From contig JAEZTF010000010.1 of the NCBI GenBank assembly GCA_023443725.1, forward strand, positions 1-32,000: a DNA stretch of 32,000 nt, written 5' to 3'. Positions 1 through 14,716 of this stretch are shown piece by piece; the first letter of the stretch is position 1; each line of letters opens with the position of its first letter. Position numbers and translations under genes: made by a program. Under the pieces are notes generated by a model. The model ran no database searches. It saw only the letters and a list, made by a program, of their open reading frames with translations, and was not told the origin of the DNA. Source of the stretch: Candidatus Parcubacteria bacterium (GTDB lineage Bacteria > Patescibacteriota > Microgenomatia > UBA12405).

Positions 1-65
1 ACTAGAAACCTCCCCTACTTGAGGGATTTTTTCAGAAATAATAAGAGAGGTTTCTTTTTCCATTT

Positions 66-500: not shown

Positions 501-546
501 TGTTTTATCTAATTATTAATTTGAGGTTTGGGAGTGATGATTCATT

Positions 547-1885: not shown

Positions 1886-1955
1886 AGCTAAAAGATATAA
1901 TGGGCTTAAAGGAGATAAAACTACACTAAAAAATAAAAAAAGTGTTGTATTGAAA

Positions 1956-2666
1956 TTATTCCTTTCTTCTCAGTTTTTTTATTAGTTTCCTATATCTATT
2001 CAACATTGCACTAACCTCGTTTTCAGACAAGCAGCGACCATTATTTTTCTCAAGTTCGTCAGCAATAAAAGTGAGTGACTTATTTTTTCTGACTTTCAGA
2101 TCGTATATCTTTTGATAAGTATCCAATATTTTGACAGGGATCTTTTTAATTGGTTCACAAAATCGGTTTTCATTAAAAAATGCCTTAATTTGTGGATACT
2201 CTTGTTTTATTTTTTTAACTAAATTATCAAAATTTGAATCAGCGTTTATTTTTATAAAAATAGAAGAATCTGTTCCTAAATATTTTTTTCTTTTCCCTAC
2301 CAAATTCTGGTATAACTTTTTTTCTTCAAAAATTTCGATCTCATTGACTTTTGCAAAAACAAACCTGTTAAACAAGACATAGTGAAATAATGAAACTGAC
2401 CATTCTGCGGGAAAATAATATTTATCTCTTAAAACATAGATTTCAGTTTGAAGATCATCTTCAAATCCTTTGTTTTCAATTATTTTGATATCTTTTTCTG
2501 TTCTTTTATATCCATTCCTTGGTATTTGGAATTTTGTTCTTATCTCTTTTATTTTTCTTTCAAAGTAGGTGTCGTCTTCTAGAATTTTTAATATCAGAAG
2601 TTGATAATCGACATTTTTAGGATCTTCTTCTTGGATTGTTTCATCAAATTCCACTTTTATTTTCAT
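1956..2666 (-). CDS. Hypothetical protein
   Basis: 236 aa, K/E-rich, first gene of the co-oriented module. The C-terminal 'SLTFIADELEKNNGRCLSENEVSAMLNRYRK' is HTH-like. No family recognised. Confidence 0.45.
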   Translation of the reverse strand: MKIKVEFDETIQEEDPKNVDYQLLILKILEDDTYFERKIKEIRTKFQIPRNGYKRTEKDIKIIENKGFEDDLQTEIYVLRDKYYFPAEWSVSLFHYVLFNRFVFAKVNEIEIFEEKKLYQNLVGKRKKYLGTDSSIFIKINADSNFDNLVKKIKQEYPQIKAFFNENRFCEPIKKIPVKILDTYQKIYDLKVRKNKSLTFIADELEKNNGRCLSENEVSAMLNRYRKLIKKLRRKE

Positions 2667-2865
2667 AGCAGTATTTTACCGCCTTAAAACAATTTATTTT
2701 CATTTTATTGTTAATAATTACCGTATCTTATCGATTAAGGAATCTGGTTGGTTTAGCTACAGTGAGGATCTTTCACGTCCACAGGTCGGCTGTGTGACTC
2801 CCGACAAAAGTTCACGTCGCCATTAAAATTGAAAAAATTTTTGAGGGGTCAAAAAATATTGAAAG

Positions 2866-2920
2866 ATTAAAAAATTATTAAAAAAGCATTAAAAAATGAT
2901 TAAAACTAATCAAAAACTAA
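2866..2920. repeat. Five tandem 11-bp A-tract units (iteron-like / intrinsically bent DNA)
   Basis: Units start at 2866, 2877, 2888, 2899 and 2910: ATTAAAAAATT / ATTAAAAAAGC / ATTAAAAAATG / ATTAAAACTAA / TCAAAAACTAA. The period is exactly 11 bp. Confidence 0.75.
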
Positions 2921-3110
2921 TCAATTTAATGATGATTATTGCTTTGTTTGTGATGATTATCAGACTTTTGAGCTGCTAATTTGTACATCTTGAAAAGTGA
3001 ATATTTGGCGGAAAGATAGATTTTCACTGCAACATTAAAATTGGGTGATATCTAGATTTTTATCTGAAGAATAGTCAGTGGCGGACGCGTTTTTCGATTT
3101 TAAGGGGGGG

Positions 3111-4082
3111 CTATTGATAATCTTTGTATTCTTTTTCCATCTCAGCTCTAATCTCTTCAATCATTTTCTTATCATCATCACTGGTTATGAAGTTTGAAGG
3201 AATAGTTTCAGGGCTAGTATTGAGAATAAATTTAGCATAGCCCTCATCATTCTTTCCAATCTCCTGATAATCCCAAAAATCCTGAATCGCTAAAGAAATA
3301 ATTTGTTCAAGAGTAGCGTCTTTGTCTTTGAATATTTTTTTACGAAGAATGTCTCGTTTGGAAATGTTTTTAAGATAATAGGACGAAGATGCCAATCCAT
3401 CTCTCTGATATTTTCCATCCTTCCAAGTGAGAGTAATAACATGACTTGGAGCACTTGCATGACAAAACCATCCATGCCCGTTTTCCCAAGAGTCATCAAC
3501 CACCATAATGTCATCTGGTTTGCCATTATTAGATTCTGACACCCAAACATTTGCATATTTATAGCCTTCTACTTTTGGTAGATCTGGAAACATATCTTTC
3601 ACTTCGCCGTTAACAATTTGAAAGACCGATTGTCCATGACAGTTCCAGCAGTTACCGTAATTTCCATGTTGGATGATTAACTCTGGAGTGCCGTCTTTGT
3701 TGATATCCCGAATCTTCACACTGTCAAACATTTCATCTTCCATGGAAAAGATTATTTTCTCTTGGTCTTTGTCATCCATTTTAGTTAAAAGGAAAACTCT
3801 TGGAAGTGTGTCATCATCACTGGGACACTCAAATGTCATCCAATTATATTTTTCATTTTTCCAGACAAGTCTTCCTCCGTTATCCTGTTTTGCAGAAATT
3901 TGTCGATCATTTTGTTGGTAGAGTTTAATAGTCTCAGCAGTGCAGTCAAACGCGCGTTCTTGAGGCTCTGGTGAAGCCGCAGGAATATTATTATCGGTCT
4001 GTTGTTTGTTTAGTTTGAAGAAAATTAGGAATACGGAAACGACGAAGATTGAAAGAATTATGAGATTGTTTTTATTTTTCAT
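3111..4082 (-). CDS. Membrane-anchored or secreted hypothetical protein
   Basis: 323 aa. N-terminal hydrophobic anchor 'LIILSIFVVSVFLIFF'. 'DINKDGTPEL' is a Ca-binding/FG-GAP-like turn. No family assigned. Confidence 0.55.
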   Translation of the reverse strand: MKNKNNLIILSIFVVSVFLIFFKLNKQQTDNNIPAASPEPQERAFDCTAETIKLYQQNDRQISAKQDNGGRLVWKNEKYNWMTFECPSDDDTLPRVFLLTKMDDKDQEKIIFSMEDEMFDSVKIRDINKDGTPELIIQHGNYGNCWNCHGQSVFQIVNGEVKDMFPDLPKVEGYKYANVWVSESNNGKPDDIMVVDDSWENGHGWFCHASAPSHVITLTWKDGKYQRDGLASSSYYLKNISKRDILRKKIFKDKDATLEQIISLAIQDFWDYQEIGKNDEGYAKFILNTSPETIPSNFITSDDDKKMIEEIRAEMEKEYKDYQ

Positions 4083-4476
4083 ATTTTGGGAAAATCTTTT
4101 TCAAATTTTCTTCTGTTATGTTTTGAATAATAACCTTTGGCCATTGTTCGACTTTTGCATTTGCTAATTTAACAATTGTGACATTATCAAGAATTCTAAC
4201 CTCTGCTAATTCAATTTTACCTTCCATTGCTAATTCATCGAATGTTTTATTAATTTTATTAAAGATAAATGGAAGTATTACTGAATTAATTATTAAAGAC
4301 ATAACGATTAAAACAACTACTCCAAAAAAACCCAAATGCCATACCCACCAGACAAGATAAATTGAAATTATTATTCCAACTCCTCCAAGAATATTATTTA
4401 AGAGCCATAAAACAATTAAAGTTGAAGAGGCTTTCTCAATCTTTTTGTAGGATTGTTGTGGTGTTAGTTGTGTCAT
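4072..4476 (-). CDS. Small integral membrane protein (start re-assigned)
   Basis: The ORF track gives 4072..4557 from a GTG that overlaps the upstream gene by 80 nt. An internal ATG at 4476 (MTQLTPQQ...) lies 1 nt after the upstream stop. Two hydrophobic helices are present (LIVLWLLNNILGGVGIIISIYLVWWVW; FFGVVVLIVMSLIINSVILPFIF). Confidence 0.5.
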   Translation of the reverse strand: MTQLTPQQSYKKIEKASSTLIVLWLLNNILGGVGIIISIYLVWWVWHLGFFGVVVLIVMSLIINSVILPFIFNKINKTFDELAMEGKIELAEVRILDNVTIVKLANAKVEQWPKVIIQNITEENLKKIFPKYEK

Positions 4477-4477
4477 T

Positions 4478-4918
4478 TTATTTTTTGATAATTCCAATCT
4501 TCTCCCAAATGTTTTTATAACTGACTTGTTTGCCATATTTATTGCCGTCATCGACACTCTTTGAAAAAGCCAAGTAAAGGAAATAAATAAAACTCATCAA
4601 TCCACCGATACTCTTGTCGATTGATGATAAAACCGCCAAAACAAATCCAATAAGAACTGGAACCACCCATGATTGATTGAGGTCATGATGTCTCCTAATC
4701 AAAATCGAAAGCGATAAAAGTCCAGACATAACAATTGGAGCGACAATAAAAAACAAAGAAAGTATTCCAGAAGTAGAAAACATAAGACCAAAAATAGTAT
4801 CGATCAGTGATACAACTGCCCATAAGACAAAGATTGGTATCCAAACAATAATCGGGGTGAGAATAATGGCAATAATAAAATCTTTTTTTGAAAGCCTGTC
4901 TTTGAAGTTTATTTTCAT
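4478..4918 (-). CDS. DUF805-family inner-membrane protein
   Basis: 146 aa, multi-pass hydrophobic. 'IRRHHDLNQSWVV' resembles the DUF805 RRLHD..SGW signature. Confidence 0.65.
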   Translation of the reverse strand: MKINFKDRLSKKDFIIAIILTPIIVWIPIFVLWAVVSLIDTIFGLMFSTSGILSLFFIVAPIVMSGLLSLSILIRRHHDLNQSWVVPVLIGFVLAVLSSIDKSIGGLMSFIYFLYLAFSKSVDDGNKYGKQVSYKNIWEKIGIIKK

Positions 4919-5041
4919 AATTTTAATAAAAGGTGATCAAATACAACTAACTTTTGTTTTACCAATTATAAGGCGATTTTTAATCAAAATCTACACGATA
5001 GTAAAGGACGCAACTGTCAATAAAATCGTAAGATTAGGATA

Positions 5042-5254
5042 ATGTTGTCTAAAGAGAGACTTATAGAAAAATTTAGTAAAAAACTCAAGGAAGAAATGGG
5101 TAATATGAGCCAAGAATCTTTGGCGACTAAGTCTGGTTTGAATATCAGTTATATTGGTAGGCTTGAGCGAGGAGATGCTTGTCCAACAATTTATGCTGTC
5201 TACAAAATTGCTTTGGCTTTGAAAGTTAAACCTAGTGATTTGATGGAGTTATAA
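5042..5254 (+). CDS. XRE-family helix-turn-helix transcriptional regulator
   Basis: 70 aa. 'MSQESLATKSGLNISYIGRLERGD' is a classic HTH_3 motif. Confidence 0.8.
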   Translation: MLSKERLIEKFSKKLKEEMGNMSQESLATKSGLNISYIGRLERGDACPTIYAVYKIALALKVKPSDLMEL

Positions 5255-6493
5255 ATCTCCGCTTGGCAATTCTAGTGATTCGATTTTAGGTAACGCTTGA
5301 CCAGTTAAATCCTCAAGATCCCCATACATTCCGATAGTATTTTCAATTACTCTGTTAATTTGAGATTCTCTCTTTGCCCAAATTTTGGTGTAAGAGTCTT
5401 TTTCTTTTTGTAAATCGGTTCTCAATCCTCGGAACGCCTCGACAATTGCCTCAACTCTTTGATTAAAACCAGTGCCAGTTAAATAATTGAACAGAACTTC
5501 CATTTTTTCGTTTTTACCAACATTGGCTAATTTAAGAGAAGTTAATTGAAGAAGATTTGTTCTCAATGCTAATGCTAAACCTAAAAATGAGGCAAAATCT
5601 GTGATCCAAACTCCATCCTTTTGACCGAAATTCTTCATATCTTTCGGTAAAACAGTGGTAACTATAACTGCAATTTCTGCCTTTGCATTTCGTTGGTCAT
5701 CTTTTAATTTTGGAATCCAGTTGTCAGTCCAAGCTTTTGTGTGTTTTGACTCCCATACAATGGTTCCACAATGATGTCCGAAATTATCGAATACTTTTTG
5801 AGTGATATCCGCTCCATTCTCCCCTTTTCCAACTGGGATGATTTCATCTCTAGTAAATTCTGTTCTTAGTAACCCTTCTAATTCCAATTCTTGGACTTCT
5901 CCTTGAGTTTGTTGTGATCCTTGTTGAAGTTTTCTTTTTAGTTCATCATTCACCTTCATGGCATCAGTAAGTTGTTTTGATAATTCTGCTAATTTATATT
6001 GTTGCTCTTCAGATGCTTTTTTAGCTGCATCTTCAGTAATTTTCTTTCTTTCTTCATCAAGCTGTCTTTGTTTTTCTAATTCAAAGTTTTTCTTTTGATC
6101 CTCAAGCTCCAATTTTTCTTTTCTTAAATCAAGTTCAGCCTTTCTGGCCTCTTCAAGTTTTTTATCCTTTTCATCCAATTTTTCTGAAAGCATTTTGATT
6201 TCATCAGCCGATTCTTTTTTGGCTTCTTCCTTGATAATTTCTTTTAGTTTTGTCTTTTCAATTTCTAAAGCTTTTGAAACACCTTGGTTAACTAGCAGCT
6301 GAACATTGTTTCGAGCATCATTAATCCGTTTTTCTTGTTCTTCCAGTGCTTTTTTCTTTTGATCAATCTCATCTTCTTTGATCTTTTGATCTGCCTCAAA
6401 TTTCTTTCTTAATTCGTCACCAATTTGATGGGCTAAAACCTCATCAACTGATATTTCTGTACTACATTTTGGACAAATTATTTTTTGCGTCAT
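5249..6493 (-). CDS. DUF2130-like protein: N-terminal CxxC, long coiled coil, C-terminal PD-(D/E)xK-like nuclease core (RmuC-like architecture)
   Basis: 414 aa. 'IICPKCSTEISVDE' at the N-terminus. Residues about 25-205 are K/E/L-rich heptad-like. 'GADIT' (D229) and 'IVWESK' (E248-x-K250) are in nuclease-motif order. Its ATG overlaps the upstream stop (ATGA, 6490-6493). Confidence 0.7.
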   Translation of the reverse strand: MTQKIICPKCSTEISVDEVLAHQIGDELRKKFEADQKIKEDEIDQKKKALEEQEKRINDARNNVQLLVNQGVSKALEIEKTKLKEIIKEEAKKESADEIKMLSEKLDEKDKKLEEARKAELDLRKEKLELEDQKKNFELEKQRQLDEERKKITEDAAKKASEEQQYKLAELSKQLTDAMKVNDELKRKLQQGSQQTQGEVQELELEGLLRTEFTRDEIIPVGKGENGADITQKVFDNFGHHCGTIVWESKHTKAWTDNWIPKLKDDQRNAKAEIAVIVTTVLPKDMKNFGQKDGVWITDFASFLGLALALRTNLLQLTSLKLANVGKNEKMEVLFNYLTGTGFNQRVEAIVEAFRGLRTDLQKEKDSYTKIWAKRESQINRVIENTIGMYGDLEDLTGQALPKIESLELPSGDL

Positions 6494-9132
6494 AGATTTT
6501 TGATATTAAATTTGTTTCTTCTGTTTTCAAAGGCTTCTTTTCCTCCTTCGAGCAAATCGCATGCATGTTCTCTTATTCCCATTTTATTTAGAAAACATGA
6601 AGCTTCAGGTTCAGTAAAAGTATTCTCAATACTTCCAGTAAAATATTCAAACATTATGTCATTTGTATTTTTAGTTTGTGGTCCATTTCTGTTAACGACG
6701 ATTATTTCTTCAGCATCTGCTTTAATGGCGATATTGGCATTATGAGTAACAAGAATAATTTGTCTTTCTTTCTTTTTTATTCTTAAAAAATTAACAATTT
6801 CGTTTGAAATCGATCTACTGTCAAGATCATCTTCTGGTTGGTCGATTAATATCGGATATTTATCTTTGCTGGATTCAATTAAAAGTTTTAATACCACTAG
6901 GGCTTTTTTACCAGGTGTCATGTCTGGATATTCGTCACCTTCATAAGACAAAGAATAATTTATGAATTCAAAATCGGAAAATAAACCTTCGACTGCTCTT
7001 TGAATATCGACTCCTGATTTTGTTTTAAGTTTTTCATCAAGTAACAAGTTCAATACAGTGGTAATATTATCAGCTTTTATCAAAGCAGATGGATCATAAA
7101 TATCGTCGTTCTTGTATCCAGGTATTGCATTTAGAGACAACCTGCAGTCTGTTGAGTTGTGAATATTTATCGAGTCTTCCAAATATTTATTTAATTTTGT
7201 TTTGTCAATTTCAACATTAGCTGAATATTTAATACCATCAATGTCACCTACCGTGTTTACTATAAATCCATTTTTAAGTTCAGTTCTTTGTTTGTGAGCT
7301 TCAACAATTTTGTTTTTAATGTCTAGAAAGGAAGTTTCTAGATTGCCTAGGACACCTTCTTCTTTTATGATTTCGGCTAGTTTAGCCTCTTGCTGTTCCC
7401 TTTCTTTTATTTTTTCTGTGGCTGATTTATTTTCTCTTGATTTGTCGATCAAATCTTTATTATCAGTTAGAATTTTTGAATTAGTGGATTCGAGTGCAAC
7501 TTTTTCTGCAGTAAGTTGTTCATTTTTTGTTTTTAAGAAAGCCAAGTAATTTATTAAATATTTTGTTTTACTTTCTTTTTCAAATTTTGAGAGTTCTTCA
7601 ATTAAATCAACTGACTTTAATAATAAAGCTCGGTCTTGAAATATTTCAGCTTCTGATGGTGGTTGTGACATTTCAGTAGTAAATACTCCGATATCATTTG
7701 ATAAATTTTCGATTTTGTTCTTATTTTCGTTAAATAATTTGCTTATTTCAGTTAACTTAACGCGATCTTCTGGAGTGAAATTCTTTTGTAGCGATTTAAT
7801 TGTCTCATCTAATAATTTAATCTGTTCAGAAATACCTGCTTTATCTCCAATCTTCTTAATTTTTTCTTTTTGTTCAGAAATTTGTTTTTTCAGAGTAAAT
7901 AAACGAAAAATATTACTAGCTAAATTAGTTCCTAATATTTCAACTTGGTTATCCAATTCTTCTTTTTGAGAAGAGATAGGATTTTGGCTATCAAAGATAG
8001 CTTTTTCAGCTATCTCCAAAATAGGTGCTTCTTCATCTTTTGCTTCTGCAAGATTGATTATGTAATTTTGTGGTATATAAGTAATTCCTTTATTAATATC
8101 ACTAGTTGGAAGAATGCTACCGTCTTTCCATTTAACAGTTAAAGATGGAGGCTCTCTTGGTGGTTTTTGTCCGTCAAATCTAGAGTTGTACTCTGAAATG
8201 TCGATCGCTTTCGCAATGCTATTTAATAATGTCGTTTTACCTGATGATCTGCTACCAATAATGACAGTAAGGTTAGAATTCAAAGGAATTGGAGTTGGTG
8301 AAAAGTTTGTATCATTTATAACTACTTCTGAAATTACTCGATAGACGTCTTTTTCATCTGGTTGAAATTCCTGTACCGCCACTCTTTCATCTGGTTCATA
8401 TAAAATTTGTTTTAATCCCTCAAAAGTTAAATCTGCTTTGATCCAGCAATTTTGTTTAAGAACGTATTCTTCAATATTATGGTTATCGGAGCACAAAATC
8501 ATTGGAAAAGTTTTTTTAATGTTTGGAAAAACATGTTGACGATAATCGTTTAGATCACTTTCTTTACCAATTTCAAAAATGTCGACATTTTTAGAAATGT
8601 CTAATTTTTCAGCCATATTTACAGGTAAGGCATTGGTGATATTTTCGATACTATTAGATTTCTTTCCTGAATGTATTGATACTAATCCTCCAAGATTTCT
8701 GATTAATGCACATGTCTCGTCTAACTTACAATAAATTTCATTATTTCCACGACCAGACTTTTCTTGTGATGCAATATCAGCCCCGTTGTAGAGCTGTCCC
8801 CATATATAGTCTAAGTCAGAGTTCTCTGGAAAAATACCGATAAAGTGAATCGGTTCTGATCCTCTTGAGTTTGAACATAATTCTATACCTGGAAAAATTG
8901 TAATTTCGTCTCCTGCTAGCTTCCTTAATTCCAAAATTCTGTTTATATCAATAATATGATGATCTGTTATTGCAACAGCATTAATTTGATTTTCCTTTAA
9001 GACTTCAATAATTCTGTCGTTACCTACCGACTTATTTTGGTAGTCGTAGGAACTTGGAGTGTGAAAATGTAAATCCCATTTTCTCCATTCTGATCCCTTT
9101 GAAAATCTATTGTTCACCCCACACCTCCTCAA
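6490..9132 (-). CDS. PHP-domain phosphoesterase fused to a coiled-coil ABC (Rad50/SbcC/SMC-like) ATPase
   Basis: 880 aa from TTG 9132. The likelier start is GTG 9117, 6 nt after GGAGG at 9124-9128. PHP ligands: H22xH24, D57-H58, E84, H96, H154, D216xH218. Walker A GSRSSGKT at 293-300 (nt 8233-8256). Coiled-coil-like region about 385-625. Signature-like TPGKK at 739-743, Walker B ILIDQPEDD at 761-769, H-loop VTHN at 795-798. Confidence 0.8.
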   Translation of the reverse strand: MRRCGVNNRFSKGSEWRKWDLHFHTPSSYDYQNKSVGNDRIIEVLKENQINAVAITDHHIIDINRILELRKLAGDEITIFPGIELCSNSRGSEPIHFIGIFPENSDLDYIWGQLYNGADIASQEKSGRGNNEIYCKLDETCALIRNLGGLVSIHSGKKSNSIENITNALPVNMAEKLDISKNVDIFEIGKESDLNDYRQHVFPNIKKTFPMILCSDNHNIEEYVLKQNCWIKADLTFEGLKQILYEPDERVAVQEFQPDEKDVYRVISEVVINDTNFSPTPIPLNSNLTVIIGSRSSGKTTLLNSIAKAIDISEYNSRFDGQKPPREPPSLTVKWKDGSILPTSDINKGITYIPQNYIINLAEAKDEEAPILEIAEKAIFDSQNPISSQKEELDNQVEILGTNLASNIFRLFTLKKQISEQKEKIKKIGDKAGISEQIKLLDETIKSLQKNFTPEDRVKLTEISKLFNENKNKIENLSNDIGVFTTEMSQPPSEAEIFQDRALLLKSVDLIEELSKFEKESKTKYLINYLAFLKTKNEQLTAEKVALESTNSKILTDNKDLIDKSRENKSATEKIKEREQQEAKLAEIIKEEGVLGNLETSFLDIKNKIVEAHKQRTELKNGFIVNTVGDIDGIKYSANVEIDKTKLNKYLEDSINIHNSTDCRLSLNAIPGYKNDDIYDPSALIKADNITTVLNLLLDEKLKTKSGVDIQRAVEGLFSDFEFINYSLSYEGDEYPDMTPGKKALVVLKLLIESSKDKYPILIDQPEDDLDSRSISNEIVNFLRIKKKERQIILVTHNANIAIKADAEEIIVVNRNGPQTKNTNDIMFEYFTGSIENTFTEPEASCFLNKMGIREHACDLLEGGKEAFENRRNKFNIKNL

Positions 9133-11584
9133 TTCTTTGATTTATTTTTTCTTGGTAGAGCTCGATAAGTTTCTTTAGTGGTTCAATTATAGATTTCTCA
9201 TTTTCTATTTTTTCGATTATTTGCCTTTGTGTGTTTATCGAAGGTAAAGCAATTGTCAGCTCGTTTAAGTCCTCAGGATTTACACCAGACTGTCTCACTC
9301 TTCCTGATAATGAAATTATTTTCTTTTGAACGGGGTCTGAAGATAAAAAATAATAAAGCCAATCATTGGTAATTTTATTATTGTCTGGTAAACACTTCAT
9401 TAATGCAACGTTATACGCTCCTGTTTTGCCACGTAAAATTTGAAAAACTGGTGGTCCATATCTTCCAATCATAATATCGGTTTCGCTACAAGTTTTGTGT
9501 CTTGCAGATTTGGGAATATAAACTGCATTTTTGTCTGATTTATAATCTCTAATCTGAAGTAATCGTATATATCCTGTTTTTGGCGTATCGATAAATGTGG
9601 ATTTTGGAGGTTGAGTTCCACCAGCATAGCTACAAACTTCTCCCAATCTTACTTTTTTCCATTTTGGATCATTTTTGAAGATGGGTTTCCAATTCTCAAC
9701 CACTTGTTTTGCCCCGTCGATAATTTTTTGAAATTCGTCAATTTCTTTTACAATTTGTTTTTGAATTTCGATTGGTGGTAACGGTATCTGTTTTTGATAA
9801 GCATCGTTTCTATTTAATCCTGGCACTCCTGATTGGATTTTTAATTTTCCCAATTCAAGTTTTTTCAACATCCAAAAAAGATATTTCAATAAAATTTTTT
9901 CTTCATTTTCTAATTTGATGTAGAACGTTGTGTCTATTGGAAAACCTGATATTTCTGACATTGTAATTTCACCAGCAGACCCTTTTCTTCCAACAATAAT
10001 AAATGGCCCTTCAACAATGTATTGGTTATGAAAACCGATAATTCCAGACGAACCAAATACTGGGTAGTCGCCTGATTTTCTAGAATTTTCTTTTAATGGT
10101 TTTCCATATTCAAAAGTACAAATGTCACCTAATTTAGCTAAAGGATAATTTCCTTGGGTGTAAACGGTATTATCTTGATATTTGTCTCCATTTAATGAGT
10201 AATCTTCTTTTTCTTTTATTTTAGTAATTGGAATTAAATTGGCTTTTGATTTTGGCCCATGATCCAATAATATTGGTTTTAACCCTGGTTCTAATGGTTT
10301 TAATAATAACTCTCTGTAACCATTGATCCAATTTAATGCTTCAGGTAAGTCATTTTTATCTATTGGACGTTTGGTGGCTCCAAGATCGAAACCGTCATTT
10401 TCTACTTTTACAAAAAGGATATCTTTAACTTTGTTTTTGAGAGATTTGTCAAAAAAGAGAATACTAGTTTTAACTCCTGCATAAGGATTAAAAATTCCAC
10501 TAGGTAAAGAAACTACACACCAAAGACCAGCATCTTCAACCAACATTTGGCGAATTTTTTTATGGGCGTTTGTCGAATTAAAAACTACTCCTTCGGGAAC
10601 AATAACACCTGCTCGACCAGATGGTGAAAGATGGTCGATCATGTAACGTAAGAAGAGTAATTCTGTTGATCGAGTTCCCATTCTTAAATCTTCACTGACA
10701 CTGTCGATATCTAAAGCCCCAGCAAAAGGTGGATTGGCTAATATTACATCCCATTTGGTTCTATCCCCTGCGGTATCGACTAAGGTATTCTGTCTTTTCA
10801 TGTTTGGATGCTCGAGTTTATGAAGATAAAGATTCATAAGTCCGAATTTGAACATGTCAAAGTCACTGTCAAATCCAGTAAAGGTGTATTTGTAGACAAA
10901 ATCTCTTTCTTGAGGAGTTAATAAATCCATTGGATATTTATCAATTTTTTTGTACTCGTCTGATGAATATTTTTCTTCAAGATGTTTGAGAGCGGCAACT
11001 AAAAAACCTGCTGTACCACAAGCAGGGTCTAAAATTGTTTCGCCTTTTTTAGGATCGATAACATCGACTATAAATTTGATAATGTGTCGTGGAGTTCGAA
11101 ATGATCCAAGAGTACCAGCTTGAGAAAGTTTGCTTAATAAATATTCGTACATGTCACCAAAAATATCGGTGTGACCAGCGGTAGCTTGTTTTTCCAAATC
11201 AGAAAACATTTTTTCGATCTCATGGACTAATCTTCTTAATGTTGGTTTGTCAAAAACTTTTACATGAGCATCGCGGAAAAGTAATTTTATTGTTTGACTG
11301 GTGGTTATCTCTGGGAGTTTTCGAAAGACTTCTTCAAGGGAGTTAAATAATTCATCAGCATTAAGAATTAAGAGATTGTCCCAGTGATATTTTCTTAATT
11401 CTCCACTAAAAATTTTTTCGGCAGATGGATCAAGGATCATGGCATTATCGTCTTTTCTAGAAAGAGATCTTAAAAAGACAAGATAATTTATTTGTTCAAT
11501 GATGGTGGCATGACTAGCGACTCCAGCACCGAAAAGAATATTCATTAAATTGTCTACTTGGTTTTTGAAATCTGTTTGGGTCAT
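9107..11584 (-). CDS. hsdM: Type I R-M methyltransferase fused to a complete two-TRD specificity subunit (HsdM-HsdS fusion)
   Basis: 825 aa. 'DPACGTAGF' (AdoMet motif I, 186-194) and 'NPPF' (284-287). From about residue 480 there are two target-recognition domains ('LGDICTFEYGKPL...', 'LGEVCSYAGGTQPPKS...'). They are separated and followed by conserved helical spacers ('IPLPPIEIQKQIVKEID', 'LPSINTQRQIIEKIE'). Confidence 0.85.
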   Translation of the reverse strand: MTQTDFKNQVDNLMNILFGAGVASHATIIEQINYLVFLRSLSRKDDNAMILDPSAEKIFSGELRKYHWDNLLILNADELFNSLEEVFRKLPEITTSQTIKLLFRDAHVKVFDKPTLRRLVHEIEKMFSDLEKQATAGHTDIFGDMYEYLLSKLSQAGTLGSFRTPRHIIKFIVDVIDPKKGETILDPACGTAGFLVAALKHLEEKYSSDEYKKIDKYPMDLLTPQERDFVYKYTFTGFDSDFDMFKFGLMNLYLHKLEHPNMKRQNTLVDTAGDRTKWDVILANPPFAGALDIDSVSEDLRMGTRSTELLFLRYMIDHLSPSGRAGVIVPEGVVFNSTNAHKKIRQMLVEDAGLWCVVSLPSGIFNPYAGVKTSILFFDKSLKNKVKDILFVKVENDGFDLGATKRPIDKNDLPEALNWINGYRELLLKPLEPGLKPILLDHGPKSKANLIPITKIKEKEDYSLNGDKYQDNTVYTQGNYPLAKLGDICTFEYGKPLKENSRKSGDYPVFGSSGIIGFHNQYIVEGPFIIVGRKGSAGEITMSEISGFPIDTTFYIKLENEEKILLKYLFWMLKKLELGKLKIQSGVPGLNRNDAYQKQIPLPPIEIQKQIVKEIDEFQKIIDGAKQVVENWKPIFKNDPKWKKVRLGEVCSYAGGTQPPKSTFIDTPKTGYIRLLQIRDYKSDKNAVYIPKSARHKTCSETDIMIGRYGPPVFQILRGKTGAYNVALMKCLPDNNKITNDWLYYFLSSDPVQKKIISLSGRVRQSGVNPEDLNELTIALPSINTQRQIIEKIENEKSIIEPLKKLIELYQEKINQRIEEVWGEQ

Positions 11585-13959
11585 AGGTTGAGAATTCGAC
11601 TATCTTTAACTTCCAAAACCATATTAATTAAATTATCTCTTCCAAAGATATTAACCCATTCATCTGGGGTAAAAGTATTGAAAGGACTAGTATTCAAAAA
11701 TAAGATATTTGGTGATTTTTTGATTTCGTTTCTTAATTCTTTATTTTGAATTAATTCATCGATAAGTAATTTGACCATCATGACTTTTTGTTGTGATCCG
11801 CCAGTAGTAGCCTCGCCATATTTTTCGACGATTCCATCTTTCCATTCTTTTAATTGTTGATCTCGATTTGGTAATTCTTTTTTACCAATGGCTGATAAAA
11901 AGAAATCTCTGATAGTGGCGACGACTTGGTGAGATTCGATTAAAGTTTCTTCATTAAAATAAAGTTCTGGTTTGTTGAGCAATTCAGTATTAATGATTTC
12001 TAATAATTCGTCTTGTCTGTTTTCGTCTTCGGCAATTTGTTTGATATCTGGTCGACTCTCGGCAAATTTAATGACTGTTTTTGTCCAATCGCTTTGATAC
12101 ATTTCTCGATCAACTCTGTCGCCATTTGGGCCATAAATAAGCTCATCTCTTCCATTAACAAAATCAAGACGATTAATGATTGGTTTATCTCCATAATCAA
12201 TAATGACTCCAGGACCTTCTCCTATTGGTTGTTCGATGACTCCTGTTTCTCCTGGGGATGGTCTTTCAATTGGTTTGGCTGATTCTTCAGTGACTTTTAG
12301 TGGTGCTGTCCAATCATATGTTTCTTCAAAATACTGACAAACACCGCAGAAATCGAAAATGACAAATTCTTTTTTATCAATTTCTTTACAAAGACGAGTA
12401 CCCCGACCTTTAATTTGTTGGTAAAGAGTTGGTTCAAAAACTGGTCGACAAAGAACAATATTTAGAATCTCTGGAGCATCGAATCCAGTGGTTAACATAT
12501 CAACAGAAACGGCAATTCGAGGTAATTGAATATCAAGATTTCTAAAGTCTTTGGCCAACTCATGAGCACCTTTCACTTGACTGGTAATGGTTTGTGCAAA
12601 ACGGCCATTAAATTCTGGTCTGAGATTATTCAATATTTTTTCGAGAGCTAAAGCATGTCTTTGATTGACGGCAAAAATTATAGTTTTACCAATTTCATTT
12701 GTTGGAGTTTTTAAGGCATATTCTAAAAACTCTTTCATCATTAATTCGTTTCTTTTGGGAATTGAGACTTTCTTTTCGATATCAGTTATTTTGTAATTTT
12801 CATTTTCAAAATCACCTTCACCAGCTAACCCTTGATCGCTTAAGGCTTGTTGAGTAATATCAGAAGTCATTTTGTGAAGTTTGGCAGGGACTAGATATCC
12901 ATCTTTAACTCCGTCTTGAATGTTATATTGATAAGTGGCTTTGCCGTCTTCACATCCGAAATATCGATAAGTACTTCTTTGAATTCTTAACTCAACAGCT
13001 CTTGGATCATCAAGACCCAATTTATTAATATCAATGTTTTTTAGGAAGTCTTTTGGAGTGGCGGTTAAACCAATTCTGGTAGCTCCAACAAAATAATCCA
13101 TTATTCCCCTAGCTTCGGCTGAATAAATACTTCGGTGAGCTTCGTCATGGATAATTAAATCAAAATATCCTGGAGTAAAAACATCTCTTCCGTGAGCGAT
13201 TAATGATTGGATAGTAGCGACGACGATATTGGCTCCAGTTAAATTCTTTTTTGATTCTCCCCAGTAAGTGGCAATAGCTGATAAGTTTCCAAGAAGTTTT
13301 TCAAATGATCCTTTTGTTTGACGAGCTAATTCAATTCGATCGACTACAAATAAAACAGTTTGAGCTTGATTTGTTTTGATAAATTTGGAAATGATAAGAG
13401 CAGATAAAACAGTTTTTCCTGTACCTGTGGCCATCTCCAATAAAAATCCTCTTTTGCCTTGATCGTATTCATTAGCAATGGCATTGAAAGCATCAATTTG
13501 ATAAGGTCGAAGTTTAATATCGGAATTAATATCTGAAAAATAATCGGAGCTTATAGGTTTTTGATTAAGAGGTTCACTAATTTTGGCTGATCTGGTTTGT
13601 CTTTTTCTAACTAAATCGTCTTGAGAAAAGAAAGCTGGAACTGGGGTGGCATCACCACCAGAATTAAAATCCCAAAAATAAATGATATGATCATTGGCTA
13701 AAAAAATATAATCGATATTTCCTTTGTACTGTAAATCGGCATAATCAAAAGATTGTTTCTTGGCTGAATAAGGATCAATATCTGGGGCTTTGGCTTCGAT
13801 TAGAGCTATTGGTTTTCCATGTTTGTCCTTAAGAACGTAGTCGGCCCTACCTGCTACACCATGATCTTCAAAAACAACTTGATTAGTATCAAAAATGTCC
13901 CAACCTACATCTTTAAGATGTTGATCGATAACTGCTCTTGAATAAGCTTCTTTTGGCAT
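11581..13959 (-). CDS. hsdR: Type I restriction enzyme R subunit (PD-(D/E)xK nuclease + SF2 DEAH translocase)
   Basis: 792 aa. N-terminal 'GRADYVL...IALIEAKA' (D40, E55-x-K57). Walker A 'ATGTGKT' (177-183). 'DEAH' (272-275). Motif VI 'QQIKGRGTR'. Its stop overlaps the hsdM-S start (ATGA, 11581-11584). Confidence 0.85.
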   Translation of the reverse strand: MPKEAYSRAVIDQHLKDVGWDIFDTNQVVFEDHGVAGRADYVLKDKHGKPIALIEAKAPDIDPYSAKKQSFDYADLQYKGNIDYIFLANDHIIYFWDFNSGGDATPVPAFFSQDDLVRKRQTRSAKISEPLNQKPISSDYFSDINSDIKLRPYQIDAFNAIANEYDQGKRGFLLEMATGTGKTVLSALIISKFIKTNQAQTVLFVVDRIELARQTKGSFEKLLGNLSAIATYWGESKKNLTGANIVVATIQSLIAHGRDVFTPGYFDLIIHDEAHRSIYSAEARGIMDYFVGATRIGLTATPKDFLKNIDINKLGLDDPRAVELRIQRSTYRYFGCEDGKATYQYNIQDGVKDGYLVPAKLHKMTSDITQQALSDQGLAGEGDFENENYKITDIEKKVSIPKRNELMMKEFLEYALKTPTNEIGKTIIFAVNQRHALALEKILNNLRPEFNGRFAQTITSQVKGAHELAKDFRNLDIQLPRIAVSVDMLTTGFDAPEILNIVLCRPVFEPTLYQQIKGRGTRLCKEIDKKEFVIFDFCGVCQYFEETYDWTAPLKVTEESAKPIERPSPGETGVIEQPIGEGPGVIIDYGDKPIINRLDFVNGRDELIYGPNGDRVDREMYQSDWTKTVIKFAESRPDIKQIAEDENRQDELLEIINTELLNKPELYFNEETLIESHQVVATIRDFFLSAIGKKELPNRDQQLKEWKDGIVEKYGEATTGGSQQKVMMVKLLIDELIQNKELRNEIKKSPNILFLNTSPFNTFTPDEWVNIFGRDNLINMVLEVKDSRILNL

Positions 13960-14013
13960 GGTTAATTATACCGCCTATCTGATGAGATTCTTAGGCAGTT
14001 GTTTATAATTAAT

Positions 14014-14184
14014 TTATTCAATTTTGGTATCTTCGGACGGTTTTTTGATTGGCTTTGATATTAAGGCAAAAAACTTCAAAAAACTCTCTGCCTCAATTCT
14101 TGCCTTTTCAAAACTAATTTCTCCACATTTTTTCCTGTAGATTTCTTGAAATTCTTTGACGGCTTCATCTGATAGAAATGACAT
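14014..14184 (-). CDS. Hypothetical 56-aa ORF directly upstream of hsdR (not in the ORF track)
   Basis: Hand translation: MSFLSDEAVKEFQEIYRKKCGEISFEKARIEAESFLKFFALISKPIKKPSEDTKIE. Same strand as the R-M operon, 54 nt upstream of the hsdR ATG. No family recognised. Confidence 0.3.
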   Translation of the reverse strand: MSFLSDEAVKEFQEIYRKKCGEISFEKARIEAESFLKFFALISKPIKKPSEDTKIE

Positions 14185-14200
14185 ACCCTATTATAGGGTA
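14184..14200. promoter_or_regulatory. Perfect 17-bp palindrome between divergent mini-ORFs (candidate operator)
   Basis: TACCCTAT-T-ATAGGGTA: 8-bp arms with a 1-nt centre. It abuts the start codon of the minus-strand mini-ORF and lies 10 nt before the plus-strand ATG at 14210. Confidence 0.5.
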
Positions 14201-14209
14201 AGATTAATT

Positions 14210-14377
14210 ATGGATCTTAAGAAAGCAAGAGAATTACTTGGAGAGGAAAATAACAAATATGATGACGACCAAATTCTTGAATTTATTGATACTGCCAAAC
14301 TCTTGTCTAGTATTGCGATTGATACAATTCAAAAAATGACAAAGAAAGAATTGGAAGAACTTGTGAAGAAAAAATAG
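14210..14377 (+). CDS. Hypothetical 55-aa protein (start moved to the first ATG)
   Basis: The track ORF 14156..14377 starts at TTG. The ATG at 14210 gives MDLKKARELLGEENNKYDDDQILEFIDTAKLL..., predicted helical and acidic/basic. No family recognised. Confidence 0.35.
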   Translation: MDLKKARELLGEENNKYDDDQILEFIDTAKLLSSIAIDTIQKMTKKELEELVKKK

Positions 14378-14479
14378 TAGCTTTGATTTAATTCACAGCT
14401 ATGCCGTACAACTCAAAAACATTTTTTAGTTTGACTAGGTATACTAAAAGGTGTTCGAAATTCGGAACACTCAGCTCAC

Positions 14480-14716
14480 ATGTATTATGTGTATGTATTA
14501 AAAAGTCTTAACACAGGGAAATTTTATAAAGGTCAAACTTCTGATCTTAATGACAGATTGTATCGTCATTTTACAGGTCAGTCTATTTCGACAAAATCAC
14601 TTCTGCCACTAGAATTGATTTTCGTCCAAATTTGTAATACCAGAAGTGAAGCAGTTTTATTGGAAAAATATTTAAAATCAGGAATAGGGAGAGAGTTTAT
14701 TAAACATATAGTTTAG
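14480..14716 (+). CDS. GIY-YIG nuclease superfamily protein (small stand-alone type)
   Basis: 78 aa. 'YYVYVLKS...GKFYKGQTSDLNDRLYRH...E' matches GIY-(10-11)-YIG plus the conserved R and E. Confidence 0.8.
   Translation: MYYVYVLKSLNTGKFYKGQTSDLNDRLYRHFTGQSISTKSLLPLELIFVQICNTRSEAVLLEKYLKSGIGREFIKHIV

What the first reader, a model, noticed from the sequence alone, without database searches (positions are those of the whole stretch)
5249..13959. Type I R-M operon extended by two translationally coupled genes (PHP-ABC ATPase + DUF2130-like nuclease): candidate composite or guarded defence system
Seen: four minus-strand genes run head to tail with no intergenic space. The hsdR stop and the hsdM-S start share ATGA at 11581-11584. 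The 3' end of hsdM-S contains GGAGG (9124-9128) 6 nt before an in-frame GTG (9117) of the next gene. That gene's stop and the last gene's start share ATGA at 6490-6493. The two extra genes are therefore very likely co-transcribed and co-translated with the R-M enzyme. Established: type I R-M loci are known to host embedded restriction-linked genes. The best-studied examples are the anticodon nuclease PrrC in the EcoprrI locus and RloC, a Rad50-like coiled-coil ABC ATPase. Both act as backup nucleases when phage disable the R-M enzyme. Inference: the pair here follows the same genomic logic but uses different catalytic domains (PHP phosphoesterase, PD-(D/E)xK). It may be an undescribed R-M-linked backup, abortive-infection or DNA-end-processing module. 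I cannot tell from the sequence alone whether this pair already has a name in defence-system catalogues.
Basis: partly seen in the sequence, partly recalled or inferred. Interest (0 to 1): 0.85.

Follow-up and report, generated by a model that had tools for sequence, protein, structure and literature searches.

The report
Restriction operon with swappable defence cassette
A bacterial restriction-modification operon carries two extra nuclease-type genes: one is a constant partner that turns up inside such operons in many bacteria, and the other sits in a slot where related strains carry a completely different ATPase gene, so the locus looks like a modular, layered anti-phage unit rather than one fixed new two-gene system.

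Summary
Four minus-strand genes are packed head to tail: hsdR, a fused hsdM-S, an 880-aa PHP + SMC-like ABC ATPase, and a 414-aa DUF2130 protein. They are joined by ATGA overlaps and by a conserved GGAGG-N6-GTG start.

- **The ATPase has a family name.** It passes NCBIfam's cut-off for TrlF (492 vs 350 bits). Its closest characterised relative is the single-gene anti-phage exonuclease Ppl.
- **No named system fits.** PADLOC v2 has no model that fits DUF2130, and no named system fits the pair.
- **The two genes are not a fixed pair.** In sister contigs, with flanks 82-94% identical in DNA, the same operon carries an unrelated AAA_13 ATPase (PADLOC PDC-S06) exactly in the TrlF slot, while DUF2130 stays.
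- **Census of 80 TrlF loci.** Three have DUF2130 adjacent.
- **Census of 78 DUF2130 loci.** None has TrlF. However, 16 have an OLD or AAA_13 ABC ATPase as immediate neighbour, and 16 lie inside type I R-M operons.
- **The pairing recurs elsewhere.** TrlF and DUF2130 are also juxtaposed in Clostridia, on Lactococcus pNP40-like plasmids and on a Bradyrhizobium plasmid.

Best reading: an R-M-anchored layered defence operon, with DUF2130 as a recurrent R-M-embedded nuclease and an interchangeable ABC-ATPase nuclease. This is a new variant of the PrrC/RloC kind. The mechanism is inferred, not shown.

The parts
11581..13959 (-). hsdR: type I restriction subunit (N-terminal PD-(D/E)xK nuclease motif D..IEAK, SF2 helicase motor)
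   Evidence: Pfam ResIII 1.8e-40, SWI2_SNF2, HSDR_N. NCBIfam EcoAI/FtnUII family 294 bits, below the cut-off of 550. PADLOC REase_I 2e-66. 94-95% protein identity to the hsdR of L081 and L083.
9107..11584 (-). hsdM-S fusion: N6-adenine methyltransferase (DPACGTAGF, NPPF at residue 284) fused to a two-TRD specificity subunit
   Evidence: Pfam N6_Mtase 2e-56 and Methylase_S with two stretches. PADLOC MTase_I 2e-117 and Specificity_I 7e-85. The M part is 86-88% identical in DNA to sister loci; the TRDs have diverged except for the conserved spacers 9655-9771 and 9114-9254.
9124..9128 (-). Shine-Dalgarno GGAGG inside the 3' end of hsdM-S, 6 nt upstream of the GTG start of the slot-3 gene
   Evidence: The same GGAGG-N6-GTG is conserved in L081, L082, L083 and L084 whichever gene follows.
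6490..9117 (-). Slot-3 gene: TrlF-family PHP phosphoesterase + SMC/Rad50-like ABC ATPase with a ~240-residue coiled-coil insert (the ORF is open back to TTG 9132)
   Evidence: NCBIfam NF045780 TrlF_fam_ATP 492.5 bits, cut-off 350. Ppl model 128.6 bits over residues 13-312. PADLOC Ppl 3.9e-30. AlphaFold model pLDDT 81: PHP domain resembles 2anu (E 1e-7); head plus coiled coil resembles Smc, JetC, MukB, Rad50 and LmuB. Invariant D20, E84, D216, G293, S296, G298, K299, D764-D768 and H797; H22, H24 and H218 conserved in at least 90% of sequences.
6500..9113 (-). Replaceable cassette: the stretch with no DNA similarity to sister operons, which carry an AAA_13/PDC-S06 ATPase gene here
   Evidence: blastn of the window against L081, L082 and L083. 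L084 against L083: the flank is 94.4% identical over 7 kb and slot 3 is unrelated. The AAA_13 gene was identified.
5249..6493 (-). DUF2130 protein: N-terminal CPxC ribbon, one ~170-residue helix, PD-(D/E)xK-type core (D229, E248, K250), C-terminal helical bundle
   Evidence: Pfam PF09903 220 bits. Invariant C7, P8, C10, D229, E248 and K250. Model pLDDT 75.5 with an alpha-beta-beta-beta-alpha-beta core. Weak Foldseek hits to MspJI, the SPARDA nuclease and Bax1, E 0.01-0.1. Listed as PD-(D/E)XK family 109 in PMC3424549. 86-94% identical to the DUF2130 of sister operons.
11581..11584 (-). ATGA overlap: hsdR stop / hsdM-S start
6490..6493 (-). ATGA overlap: slot-3 stop / DUF2130 start
   Evidence: The same 4-nt overlap occurs in L081-L084.
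13960..14437 (-). Conserved upstream leader of the operon (probable promoter region; contains a 56-aa ORF at 14014-14184)
   Evidence: DNA similarity to L081 continues to window 14437. Small ORFs listed. The promoter scan was not informative.
5042..5254 (+). 70-aa helix-turn-helix ORF, convergent with DUF2130 and overlapping its 3' end by 6 nt; possible local regulator
   Evidence: The equivalent genes in L081 and L082 carry Pfam HTH_3.

Best explanation
The locus is a type I restriction-modification operon (hsdR plus a fused hsdM-S) in a Patescibacteria-like genome. It carries an embedded, co-expressed accessory layer of two modular parts.

Part 1 is DUF2130, a coiled-coil PD-(D/E)xK-type nuclease. 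It is the constant member of this operon lineage, and its family recurs inside type I R-M operons across phyla.

Part 2 is a hot-swappable slot between hsdM-S and DUF2130 that holds an ABC-ATPase defence protein. Here it is a TrlF-family PHP-exonuclease/SMC-like ATPase related to the anti-phage protein Ppl. In sister strains it is an AAA_13 (PDC-S06) ATPase. In other lineages an OLD-family ATPase-TOPRIM nuclease sits next to DUF2130.

Inferred mechanism: the R-M enzyme cuts unmodified invading DNA. By analogy with Ppl, the TrlF protein dimerises through its ABC head, engages DNA ends and degrades them with its PHP 3'-5' exonuclease. DUF2130 adds endonucleolytic cleavage. Together they would finish off restricted DNA, or act on phage DNA that escapes restriction.

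Shown: gene order, overlaps, family memberships, the cassette exchange and the neighbourhood statistics. Inferred: defence function, enzymatic activities, and any cooperation between the parts.
For: - **Operon anatomy.** The architecture and its conserved coupling signals are confirmed.
- **Family assignment.** TrlF membership and Ppl similarity. The predicted fold is PHP plus an SMC-like head with a coiled coil. Ppl is described as a single-gene, NTP-regulated 3'-5' exonuclease that senses 3'-OH ends (PMC12904381).
- **Cassette exchange.** Sister operons L081-83 have hsdR/hsdM at 86-88% and DUF2130 at 82-85% DNA identity, but an unrelated AAA_13 gene in the slot. L084 (TrlF type) and L083 (AAA_13 type) share a 94.4% identical 7-kb flank. 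The AAA_13 protein matches the single-gene candidate PDC-S06, 2e-56 to 9e-62.
- **DUF2130 does not track its partner.** It is 93.5% identical to the copies with an AAA_13 partner and 92.1% to the copy with a TrlF partner.
- **DUF2130 census.** 16 of 78 loci lie inside type I R-M operons. 16 of 78 have an ABC ATPase (12 OLD, 4 AAA_13) as immediate same-strand neighbour, against 1 further away. Pair-with-R-M association: 8/16 vs 8/62, Fisher p=0.003.
- **TrlF contexts.** It occurs beside type I, IIG or III R-M genes and also alone on plasmids.
- **Recurrent juxtaposition.** TrlF and DUF2130 lie together in Clostridia (L031/32/34), on pNP40-like plasmids and on a Bradyrhizobium plasmid.
Against: - No experiment links TrlF or DUF2130 to phage defence. 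In Photorhabdus the trl locus gave a temperature-restriction phenotype, with mutations only in trlG, not in trlF (PMC7554251).
- The PD-(D/E)xK assignment for DUF2130 rests on motifs, a medium-confidence model and weak Foldseek hits (E above 0.01).
- The census loci are not phylogenetically independent (for example L090/L091 and L107/L115/L119), and many contigs are short, so the proportions and the Fisher test are rough.
- Co-transcription is inferred, not measured.
- Cooperation with restriction-generated DNA ends is pure inference.
Confidence: 0.55

Rival explanations
1. Obligate two-component system. The slot-3 ABC ATPase (TrlF here) and DUF2130 form one physical complex. It would work as sensor/motor plus nuclease effector, as in PARIS AriA-AriB, Septu PtuA-PtuB, Gabija GajA-GajB or Lamassu. 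The R-M genes would be only neighbours.
For: A 4-nt ATGA overlap joins the slot-3 gene to DUF2130 in all five related loci. ABC ATPases are immediate neighbours of DUF2130 16 times and lie further away once. TrlF and DUF2130 are juxtaposed in at least four lineages, with two DUF2130 subfamilies only about 25% identical and in both gene orders. One TrlF is followed by RmuC, another coiled-coil nuclease-type protein.
Against: DUF2130 is nearly unchanged whether its partner is TrlF or the unrelated AAA_13, and its sequence does not cluster by partner. That is hard to reconcile with a specific interface. TrlF and OLD already carry their own nuclease domains. 76 of 80 TrlF loci and most DUF2130 loci lack the other partner. 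Ppl, the closest characterised relative of TrlF, works as a single gene. A RelE/HTH pair sits between the two genes in Bradyrhizobium.
Confidence: 0.22
2. PrrC/RloC-type guard. The extra proteins are held inactive by binding the R-M complex. They are released as suicidal or backup nucleases when a phage anti-restriction protein disables the enzyme.
For: The genes are embedded in a type I operon and translationally coupled to it. DUF2130 usually sits between hsdM and hsdS, where prrC sits (PrrC description in PMC12707154). The alternative slot-3 protein has RloC-like architecture: an ABC ATPase with a coiled coil carrying CxxC.
Against: TrlF gives no PrrC or RloC match, and no anticodon-nuclease or HEPN-type domain was detected. 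Both families occur mostly without any R-M gene nearby, and with different R-M types (I, IIG, III), so no specific R-M partner is implied. The predicted catalytic domains point to DNA rather than tRNA.
Confidence: 0.15
3. Not defence. TrlF and DUF2130 are DNA-repair or recombination proteins (SbcCD/Mre11-Rad50-like and RmuC-like) that happen to lie on the same mobile island as an R-M system.
For: The TrlF fold resembles Rad50/SMC heads joined to a phosphoesterase. DUF2130 is unusually well conserved, 53-60% identity across phyla. The only genetics on a trl locus gave a growth-temperature phenotype.
Against: Distribution is patchy and biased towards plasmids and islands. Neighbours are dominated by R-M, OLD, GmrSD, Abi, Fic, RhuM and toxin-antitoxin genes. 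Slot-3 replacement between near-identical strains is typical of defence loci. The N-terminal 300 residues match the anti-phage Ppl model. hhalign found no DUF2130-RmuC homology.
Confidence: 0.08

Closest known systems
Ppl (Gao et al. single-gene anti-phage system; NCBIfam NF042955, PADLOC Ppl)
   Same: N-terminal PHP phosphoesterase followed by a P-loop/ABC-type NTPase. The Ppl models align to residues 12-312 of the window protein (2e-37 and 3.9e-30). It is found in defence contexts.
   Different: The whole-protein score is 128.6 against a cut-off of 1000, so it is not a Ppl orthologue. The window protein belongs to the separate TrlF family, has a long SMC-like coiled-coil insert, and sits inside an R-M operon rather than standing alone.
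TrlF of the Photorhabdus temperature-restriction locus trlR-trlF-trlG (PMC7554251; NCBIfam NF045780)
   Same: Same protein family by the curated cut-off (492.5 vs 350 bits). It is also a large 'histidinol-phosphatase-like' ATPase in a small accessory operon.
   Different: The partner genes differ. Photorhabdus has TrlG (AlbA_2 + HATPase_c_4) and TrlR; here the partners are DUF2130 and a type I R-M system. TrlG-type neighbours were seen in only about 3 of 54 operonic TrlF neighbours. No phage phenotype has been reported for trlF.
PrrC in the EcoprrI locus and RloC (restriction-linked ABC-ATPase anticodon nucleases)
   Same: The genomic logic is the same: an ABC-ATPase accessory gene embedded in and co-expressed with a type I R-M operon. 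The sister-strain AAA_13 protein even has a coiled coil with CxxC, like RloC.
   Different: No anticodon-nuclease domain and no PrrC/RloC model hit. The catalytic domains are PHP and PD-(D/E)xK, which predicts DNA targets. A second accessory gene (DUF2130) is present.
Mre11-Rad50 / SbcCD
   Same: A metallo-phosphoesterase nuclease combined with an SMC-like ABC ATPase bearing a coiled coil. Rad50 and Mre11-Rad50 complexes are among the structural matches.
   Different: The nuclease is PHP, not calcineurin-like, and it is fused in one chain. The coiled coil is short (~240 residues) and contains no cysteine, so there is no zinc hook. Distribution is that of a mobile defence gene.
OLD-family systems (class 1 OLD, Gabija GajA-GajB, PARIS)
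   Same: An ABC ATPase coupled to a nuclease. OLD-family genes occupy the position next to DUF2130 in 12 of 78 loci, several inside type I R-M operons.
   Different: TrlF has PHP instead of TOPRIM. DUF2130 is not GajB (UvrD) or AriB. PADLOC GajA and AriA hits cover only the ATPase motifs.

Membership tests
TrlF family AAA-like ATPase (NCBIfam NF045780) | Whole-protein HMM score at or above the curated cut-off (350 bits), full-length alignment | tested here: met
   492.5 bits, E 4e-147; residues 12-874 align to profile positions 1-942 of 944. Plasmid homologues are annotated TrlF by PGAP.
TrlF family AAA-like ATPase (NCBIfam NF045780) | Operon partners TrlG (AlbA_2 + HATPase_c_4) and TrlR, as in the founding Photorhabdus locus | tested here: not met
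   The window has no such genes; the neighbours are hsdM-S and DUF2130. This is a property of the founding locus, not of the protein-family model.
Ppl anti-phage protein | HMM score at or above the NCBIfam cut-off (1000 bits) | tested here: not met
   128.6 bits, and only the N-terminal ~300 residues align well. PADLOC Ppl 102.7 bits.
Ppl anti-phage protein | PHP nuclease domain with metal-binding residues plus an NTPase with Walker A and Walker B | tested here: met
   DLHFH (H22, H24), E84, SDNH (D216, H218), GSRSSGKT (K299), ILIDQPEDD. The PHP fold matches 2anu and the Pol III alpha PHP domain.
Ppl anti-phage protein | Protects against phage as a single gene; 3'-5' ssDNA exonuclease inhibited by NTPs | not testable with these tools
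   Needs biochemistry and plaque assays. The property is taken from PMC12904381.
Type I restriction-modification system | HsdR with an SF2 helicase motor and an N-terminal nuclease | tested here: met
   ResIII 1.8e-40, HSDR_N 3.7e-8, Helicase_C. D..IEAK motif. PADLOC REase_I.
Type I restriction-modification system | HsdM gamma-class N6-adenine methyltransferase (NPPF, SAM motif) and HsdS with two target-recognition domains | tested here: met
   N6_Mtase 2e-56, NPPF at residue 284, DPACGTAGF, Methylase_S with two stretches. The variation is that M and S are fused in one 825-aa chain, as in sister loci.
Type IB (EcoAI/FtnUII) HsdR family NF046051 | HMM score at or above the cut-off of 550 | tested here: not met
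   294.2 bits. It is the best-scoring HsdR model but falls below threshold.
PrrC / RloC restriction-linked anticodon nucleases | Gene embedded in, and co-oriented with, a type I R-M operon | tested here: met
   The position is after hsdM-S rather than between hsdS and hsdR.
PrrC / RloC restriction-linked anticodon nucleases | C-terminal anticodon-nuclease (HEPN-like) domain; model-level similarity to PrrC or RloC | tested here: not met
   No PrrC or RloC hit for the 880-aa protein in the Pfam, NCBIfam or PADLOC scans, nor for the sister AAA_13 protein in the NCBIfam or PADLOC scans.
PrrC / RloC restriction-linked anticodon nucleases | Latency through binding to the R-M enzyme and activation by anti-restriction factors or DNA damage | not testable with these tools
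   Requires genetics and biochemistry.
DUF2130 (Pfam PF09903, COG4487) | HMM score above the gathering threshold (26.7 bits) | tested here: met
   220 bits, E 4.2e-65; residues 167-410 align to profile positions 4-253 of 255.
PD-(D/E)xK nuclease superfamily | Alpha-beta-beta-beta-alpha-beta core with a conserved D...(D/E)xK catalytic triad | tested here: inconclusive
RmuC family | Sequence or profile homology to RmuC (PF02646) | tested here: not met
   hhalign of the DUF2130 profile against an RmuC protein (L042): probability 0.2%. No RmuC hit in Pfam. The only resemblance is a coiled coil followed by a predicted nuclease.
Named multi-gene defence systems in PADLOC-DB v2 (Gabija, Septu, PARIS, Lamassu, MADS and others) | Model hits to all required components | tested here: not met
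   Only partial ATPase-motif hits for TrlF (GajA, PtuA, AriA, mad3/mad8; 1e-10 or weaker). For DUF2130 only a marginal BovA hit, E 0.007.

The most novel reading that the evidence does not exclude
DUF2130 is the hub of a widespread, unrecognised composite immune architecture. It would be a partner-agnostic coiled-coil nuclease that plugs into type I (and type III-like) R-M operons and works together with whichever ABC-ATPase nuclease occupies the adjacent slot (TrlF, AAA_13 or OLD). This would give a three-layer system (R-M + ATPase sensor/exonuclease + DUF2130) whose ATPase module is exchanged between strains to change what is sensed. The uncharacterised DUF2130-TrlF pair on the classic Lactococcus phage-resistance plasmid pNP40 would be a tractable example.
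Probability: 0.25. Interest if true: 0.8.

Novelty: new variant of a known kind. Interest (0 to 1): 0.58.

Why it matters
Accessory genes embedded in R-M operons (PrrC, RloC) are the textbook case of layered or guarding immunity, but very few have been studied. This locus adds three things.

- A DUF family with no assigned function (DUF2130) turns out to be one of the recurrent residents of type I R-M operons and a frequent immediate neighbour of ABC-ATPase nucleases.
- The TrlF family was previously known only from a Photorhabdus temperature phenotype. Here it is placed among Ppl-like defence nucleases and shown to ride with R-M systems.
- There is a clean natural 'slot' in which two unrelated ATPase genes alternate between strains whose flank is 94% identical. 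That is a ready-made comparison for asking whether neighbouring defence genes cooperate or merely co-reside.

Because the same DUF2130-TrlF pair sits on Lactococcus plasmid pNP40, the question can be tested in a cultivable host, even though this window comes from an uncultivated Patescibacteria-like genome.

Tried and rejected
- **My own DUF2130 HMM was too narrow.** An HMM built from close DUF2130 homologues (A2) found no DUF2130 in the 80 TrlF loci. Pfam then showed three divergent DUF2130 proteins directly downstream of TrlF. I rebuilt a Firmicutes-type HMM and re-scanned.
- **Promoter and terminator scan.** Counts equalled the shuffles, so it was not used.
- **PDB sequence search.** No solved relative of DUF2130 was found, and only generic ABC-motif hits for TrlF. 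No Ppl structure was found.
- **DUF2130 to RmuC homology by hhalign.** Negative, so I call it only an architectural analogy.
- **The 445-aa family downstream of Flavobacteriia TrlF (L035/53/62/63).** No Pfam domain or nuclease motif was recognised; I left it unexplained.
- **Literature.** No paper in the held library links TrlF or DUF2130/PF09903/COG4487 to phage defence. Krishnan et al. 2020 on ABC ATPases is not held. The lactococcal plasmidome paper does not mention a PHP protein or this pair.
- **MADS membership.** Rejected. The mad2 and mad5 hits are much weaker than the type I MTase and S models, and mad3/mad8 match only the P-loop.
- **Phage origin.** Rejected. Both families are nearly absent from phage genomes.

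Full report
**1. What is in the window**

Four minus-strand ORFs fill 5249-13959 without intergenic space:
- hsdR, 11581-13959 (792 aa);
- a fused hsdM-S, 9107-11584 (825 aa);
- an 880-aa ORF, 6490-9132;
- a 414-aa ORF, 5249-6493.

ATGA at 11584-11581 and at 6493-6490 joins stop and start codons. GGAGG at 9128-9124 lies 6 nt before an in-frame GTG at 9117, and the hsdM-S stop is at 9109-9107.

The mechanical ORF runs back to TTG 9132. However, the GGAGG-N6-GTG arrangement is conserved in four related contigs, even where a different gene follows it. In L081 the product begins MIKK exactly at that codon. GTG 9117 is therefore the probable start.

**2. What the four proteins are**

- **HsdR.** It has ResIII/SWI2_SNF2 helicase and HSDR_N nuclease domains. 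Its best NCBIfam model is the EcoAI/FtnUII family, but below cut-off (294 vs 550 bits).
- **HsdM-S.** It has N6_Mtase (NPPF, DPACGTAGF) and two Methylase_S target-recognition domains in one chain.
- **The 880-aa protein.** It passes the curated cut-off of NCBIfam NF045780, 'TrlF family AAA-like ATPase' (492.5 vs 350 bits). Its first ~300 residues also match the anti-phage Ppl models (2e-37 in NCBIfam; 3.9e-30 in PADLOC), far below Ppl's own cut-off. The AlphaFold model (pLDDT 81) shows a PHP domain resembling TM0559 and the Pol III alpha PHP domain, followed by an SMC/Rad50/JetC/LmuB-like ABC head. The head is split by a ~240-residue coiled coil that contains no cysteine. The PHP and Walker residues are conserved.
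- **The 414-aa protein.** It is a clear DUF2130 member (220 bits). The model shows an N-terminal CPxC ribbon, one ~170-residue helix, and an alpha/beta core carrying invariant D229, E248 and K250. Foldseek hits to PD-(D/E)xK nucleases are weak. The family is listed as PD-(D/E)XK, function unknown, in PMC3424549.
- **PADLOC v2.** It has no model that fits DUF2130 and no named system that fits the pair.

**3. Where the name TrlF comes from**

It comes from the Photorhabdus 'temperature restriction locus' trlR-trlF-trlG. There, temperature-tolerant mutants mapped to trlG, never to trlF (PMC7554251). No paper in the held library connects TrlF or DUF2130 with phage.

Ppl, the nearest characterised relative, is described as a single-gene 3'-5' ssDNA exonuclease. 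It is inhibited by NTPs bound to its PHP and NTPase domains and is activated by 3'-OH ends (PMC12904381).

**4. The decisive comparison: sister operons**

Proteins 86-95% identical to the window's DUF2130 lie on contigs L081-L083. These carry the same operon, hsdR - hsdM-S - X - DUF2130, with the same 4-nt overlap. But X is a ~745-aa AAA_13 ATPase, not TrlF.

At DNA level the window matches these contigs as follows:
- 86-88% across hsdR and the M part of hsdM-S;
- only the conserved spacers of the S part;
- 82-85% across DUF2130;
- nothing between 6500 and 9113.

A second TrlF-type locus (L084-86; TrlF 88%, DUF2130 92% identical) shares a 7-kb downstream flank with the AAA_13-type locus L083. 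That flank (DUF2130, GmrSD and further genes) is 94.4% identical, while slot 3 is unrelated.

The AAA_13 protein matches PADLOC's single-gene candidate PDC-S06 (down to 9e-62). It has a CxxC motif inside its coiled coil, which is an RloC-like architecture, but gives no PrrC or RloC hit.

DUF2130 identity does not follow the partner. The window copy is 93.5% identical to the copies next to AAA_13 and 92.1% to the copy next to TrlF.

So DUF2130 belongs to the operon backbone, and the ATPase is an exchangeable cassette.

**5. Census from the TrlF side**

I examined 80 species-level genome loci. The neighbours are very diverse:
- type I R-M genes: L046, L049, L052, L070;
- type IIG methyltransferase-nucleases: L002, L005, L006, L045;
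- N6_N4 methyltransferases;
- TrlG-like AlbA_2/HATPase_c_4 proteins: about 3;
- HNH, GmrSD, Fic and toxin-antitoxin genes.

DUF2130 is directly downstream in three Clostridia loci (L031, L032, L034) and 7 kb away in L045. These belong to a DUF2130 subfamily only ~25% identical to the window's. RmuC follows TrlF once (L042).

On plasmids TrlF is common. It stands alone beside Abi genes in Enterobacteriaceae, lies upstream of a type III R-M system in Lactococcus, and lies beside hsdR in Levilactobacillus. On pNP40 and related lactococcal plasmids it lies immediately downstream of a DUF2130 gene. On a Bradyrhizobium plasmid TrlF and a window-type DUF2130 are separated only by a RelE/HTH pair.

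**6. Census from the DUF2130 side**

I examined 80 metagenome loci, of which 78 were usable. None has TrlF. The main counts are:
- 16 have an ABC ATPase as the immediate same-strand neighbour (12 OLD-family ATPase-TOPRIM, 4 AAA_13). Only one such gene lies further away.
- 16 sit inside type I R-M operons. Typical orders are hsdM-DUF2130-hsdS, hsdM-DUF2130-OLD-hsdS and DUF2130-AAA_13-hsdS-hsdR.
- DUF2130-ATPase pairs are more often R-M-embedded than DUF2130 alone: 8/16 vs 8/62, Fisher p=0.003. The loci are not phylogenetically independent, and many contigs are short.

A Citrobacter plasmid shows OLD-DUF2130 inside a type III-like R-M island. Both families are nearly absent from phage genomes.

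**7. Interpretation**

The shown facts fit a type I R-M operon carrying an embedded accessory layer. DUF2130 is a recurrent R-M-resident nuclease-type protein. Next to it is a slot for an ABC-ATPase defence protein, filled here by a Ppl-related TrlF.

I consider independent but co-regulated modules the most likely arrangement (0.55). They may cooperate through a shared substrate, namely DNA ends. The reasons are that DUF2130 is indifferent to which ATPase is next to it, that TrlF and OLD have their own nuclease domains, and that each family mostly occurs without the other.

The proposed mechanism is inference by analogy with Ppl and from domain content. Restriction, or phage processes, would produce DNA ends. 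TrlF's ABC head would engage them and its PHP exonuclease would degrade them. DUF2130 would add endonuclease activity.

The rivals are:
- **An obligate ATPase-DUF2130 complex (0.22).** It is favoured by the strict adjacency and by repeated independent juxtaposition. It is disfavoured by the partner-agnostic sequence of DUF2130.
- **A PrrC-like guard (0.15).** It is favoured by position. It is disfavoured by the lack of any R-M specificity and by the absence of an anticodon-nuclease domain.
- **A repair function unrelated to defence (0.08).**

**8. Novelty and score**

R-M-embedded accessory genes are a known kind, and TrlF already has a family name. New here are:
- the recognition of DUF2130 as a frequent R-M-embedded partner of ABC-ATPase nucleases;
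- the placement of TrlF among Ppl-like defence proteins;
- the natural slot polymorphism.

I rate it a new variant of a known kind, interest about 0.58. The ceiling is higher if DUF2130 proves to be a general hub that links R-M enzymes with interchangeable ATPase sensors.

Noticed in passing
window 1-5200 (compare L081 9991-13828 and L082 5633-12485): The region downstream of the operon is 69-78% identical in DNA to the equivalent flank of L081 and L082. There it encodes DUF805 (in L082), a DnaG-like primase (Zn_ribbon_DnaG/Toprim) and serine recombinases/resolvases. The R-M operon therefore abuts a probable integrative mobile element. In L083 and L084 the same operon is instead followed by GmrSD, a sigma70_r4 protein and a HATPase_c_3 protein.
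   Followed up: partly
window 5042-5254 (+): A 70-aa helix-turn-helix ORF is convergent with DUF2130 and overlaps its last 6 nt. The equivalent genes in L081 and L082 carry Pfam HTH_3. It may be a local regulator.
   Followed up: partly
window 9107-11584 (-); also L081-L083 and L165 476-3259: hsdM and hsdS are fused into one 825-846-aa protein with two TRDs. This would change the usual M2S1 stoichiometry. The fusion is conserved in the sister loci, and a similar fusion occurs in an unrelated metagenome locus.
   Followed up: no
window 14480-14716 (+): A 78-aa ORF (MYYVYVLKS...KFYKGQT...) between the R-M operon and plsY looks like a small GIY-YIG-type nuclease domain. This is judged by eye only.
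   Followed up: no
L167 4662-8532 (Lactococcus lactis pNP40, NC_010901.1 11074-14944): The classic phage-resistance plasmid pNP40 carries a DUF2130 gene followed 46 nt later by a TrlF-family gene, near two cytosine-methyltransferase genes and an Abi gene. The pair recurs on at least 7 related lactococcal plasmids. I found no description of it as a defence system in the papers I could search.
   Followed up: partly
L171 2310-7263 (Bradyrhizobium ottawaense pBoOM27): A TrlF-family gene and a window-type DUF2130 gene lie on the same strand, with a RelE/ParE toxin and an HTH antitoxin inserted between them.
   Followed up: no
L170 1-12120 (Citrobacter freundii plasmid NZ_CP056645.1): A six-gene co-oriented island: helicase-related protein, DUF4391, OLD-type ATP-dependent endonuclease, DUF2130, DNA methyltransferase, DEAD/DEAH helicase. 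DUF262 (GmrSD-like) follows. DUF4391 also appears upstream of one TrlF locus.
   Followed up: no
L081 5467-7692, L082 3400-5640, L083 6591-8834: The AAA_13/PDC-S06 ATPase that replaces TrlF has an invariant C-x-F-C motif in its coiled-coil insert, like a Rad50/RloC zinc hook. It also has a conserved C-terminal ~140-residue domain (W-H-H-D-D-S motif) of unknown function. DUF2130 has its own invariant N-terminal CPxC.
   Followed up: no
L035 12670-14013, L053 12839-14173, L062 and L063 12841-14175: In Flavobacteriia, TrlF is followed at 17-38 nt by a conserved ~445-aa protein family with no Pfam domain, and preceded by a conserved ~371-391-aa protein. This may be another TrlF partner set.
   Followed up: partly
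P0121-P0240; H64-H110: DUF2130 is unusually conserved for a mobile gene. The window-type subfamily is 53-60% identical across Patescibacteria, Omnitrophica and Nitrospirota. The Firmicutes-type subfamily is ~62% identical between Lactococcus and Bradyrhizobium/Ralstonia replicons. One Arthrobacter copy is annotated 'MG148'.
   Followed up: no
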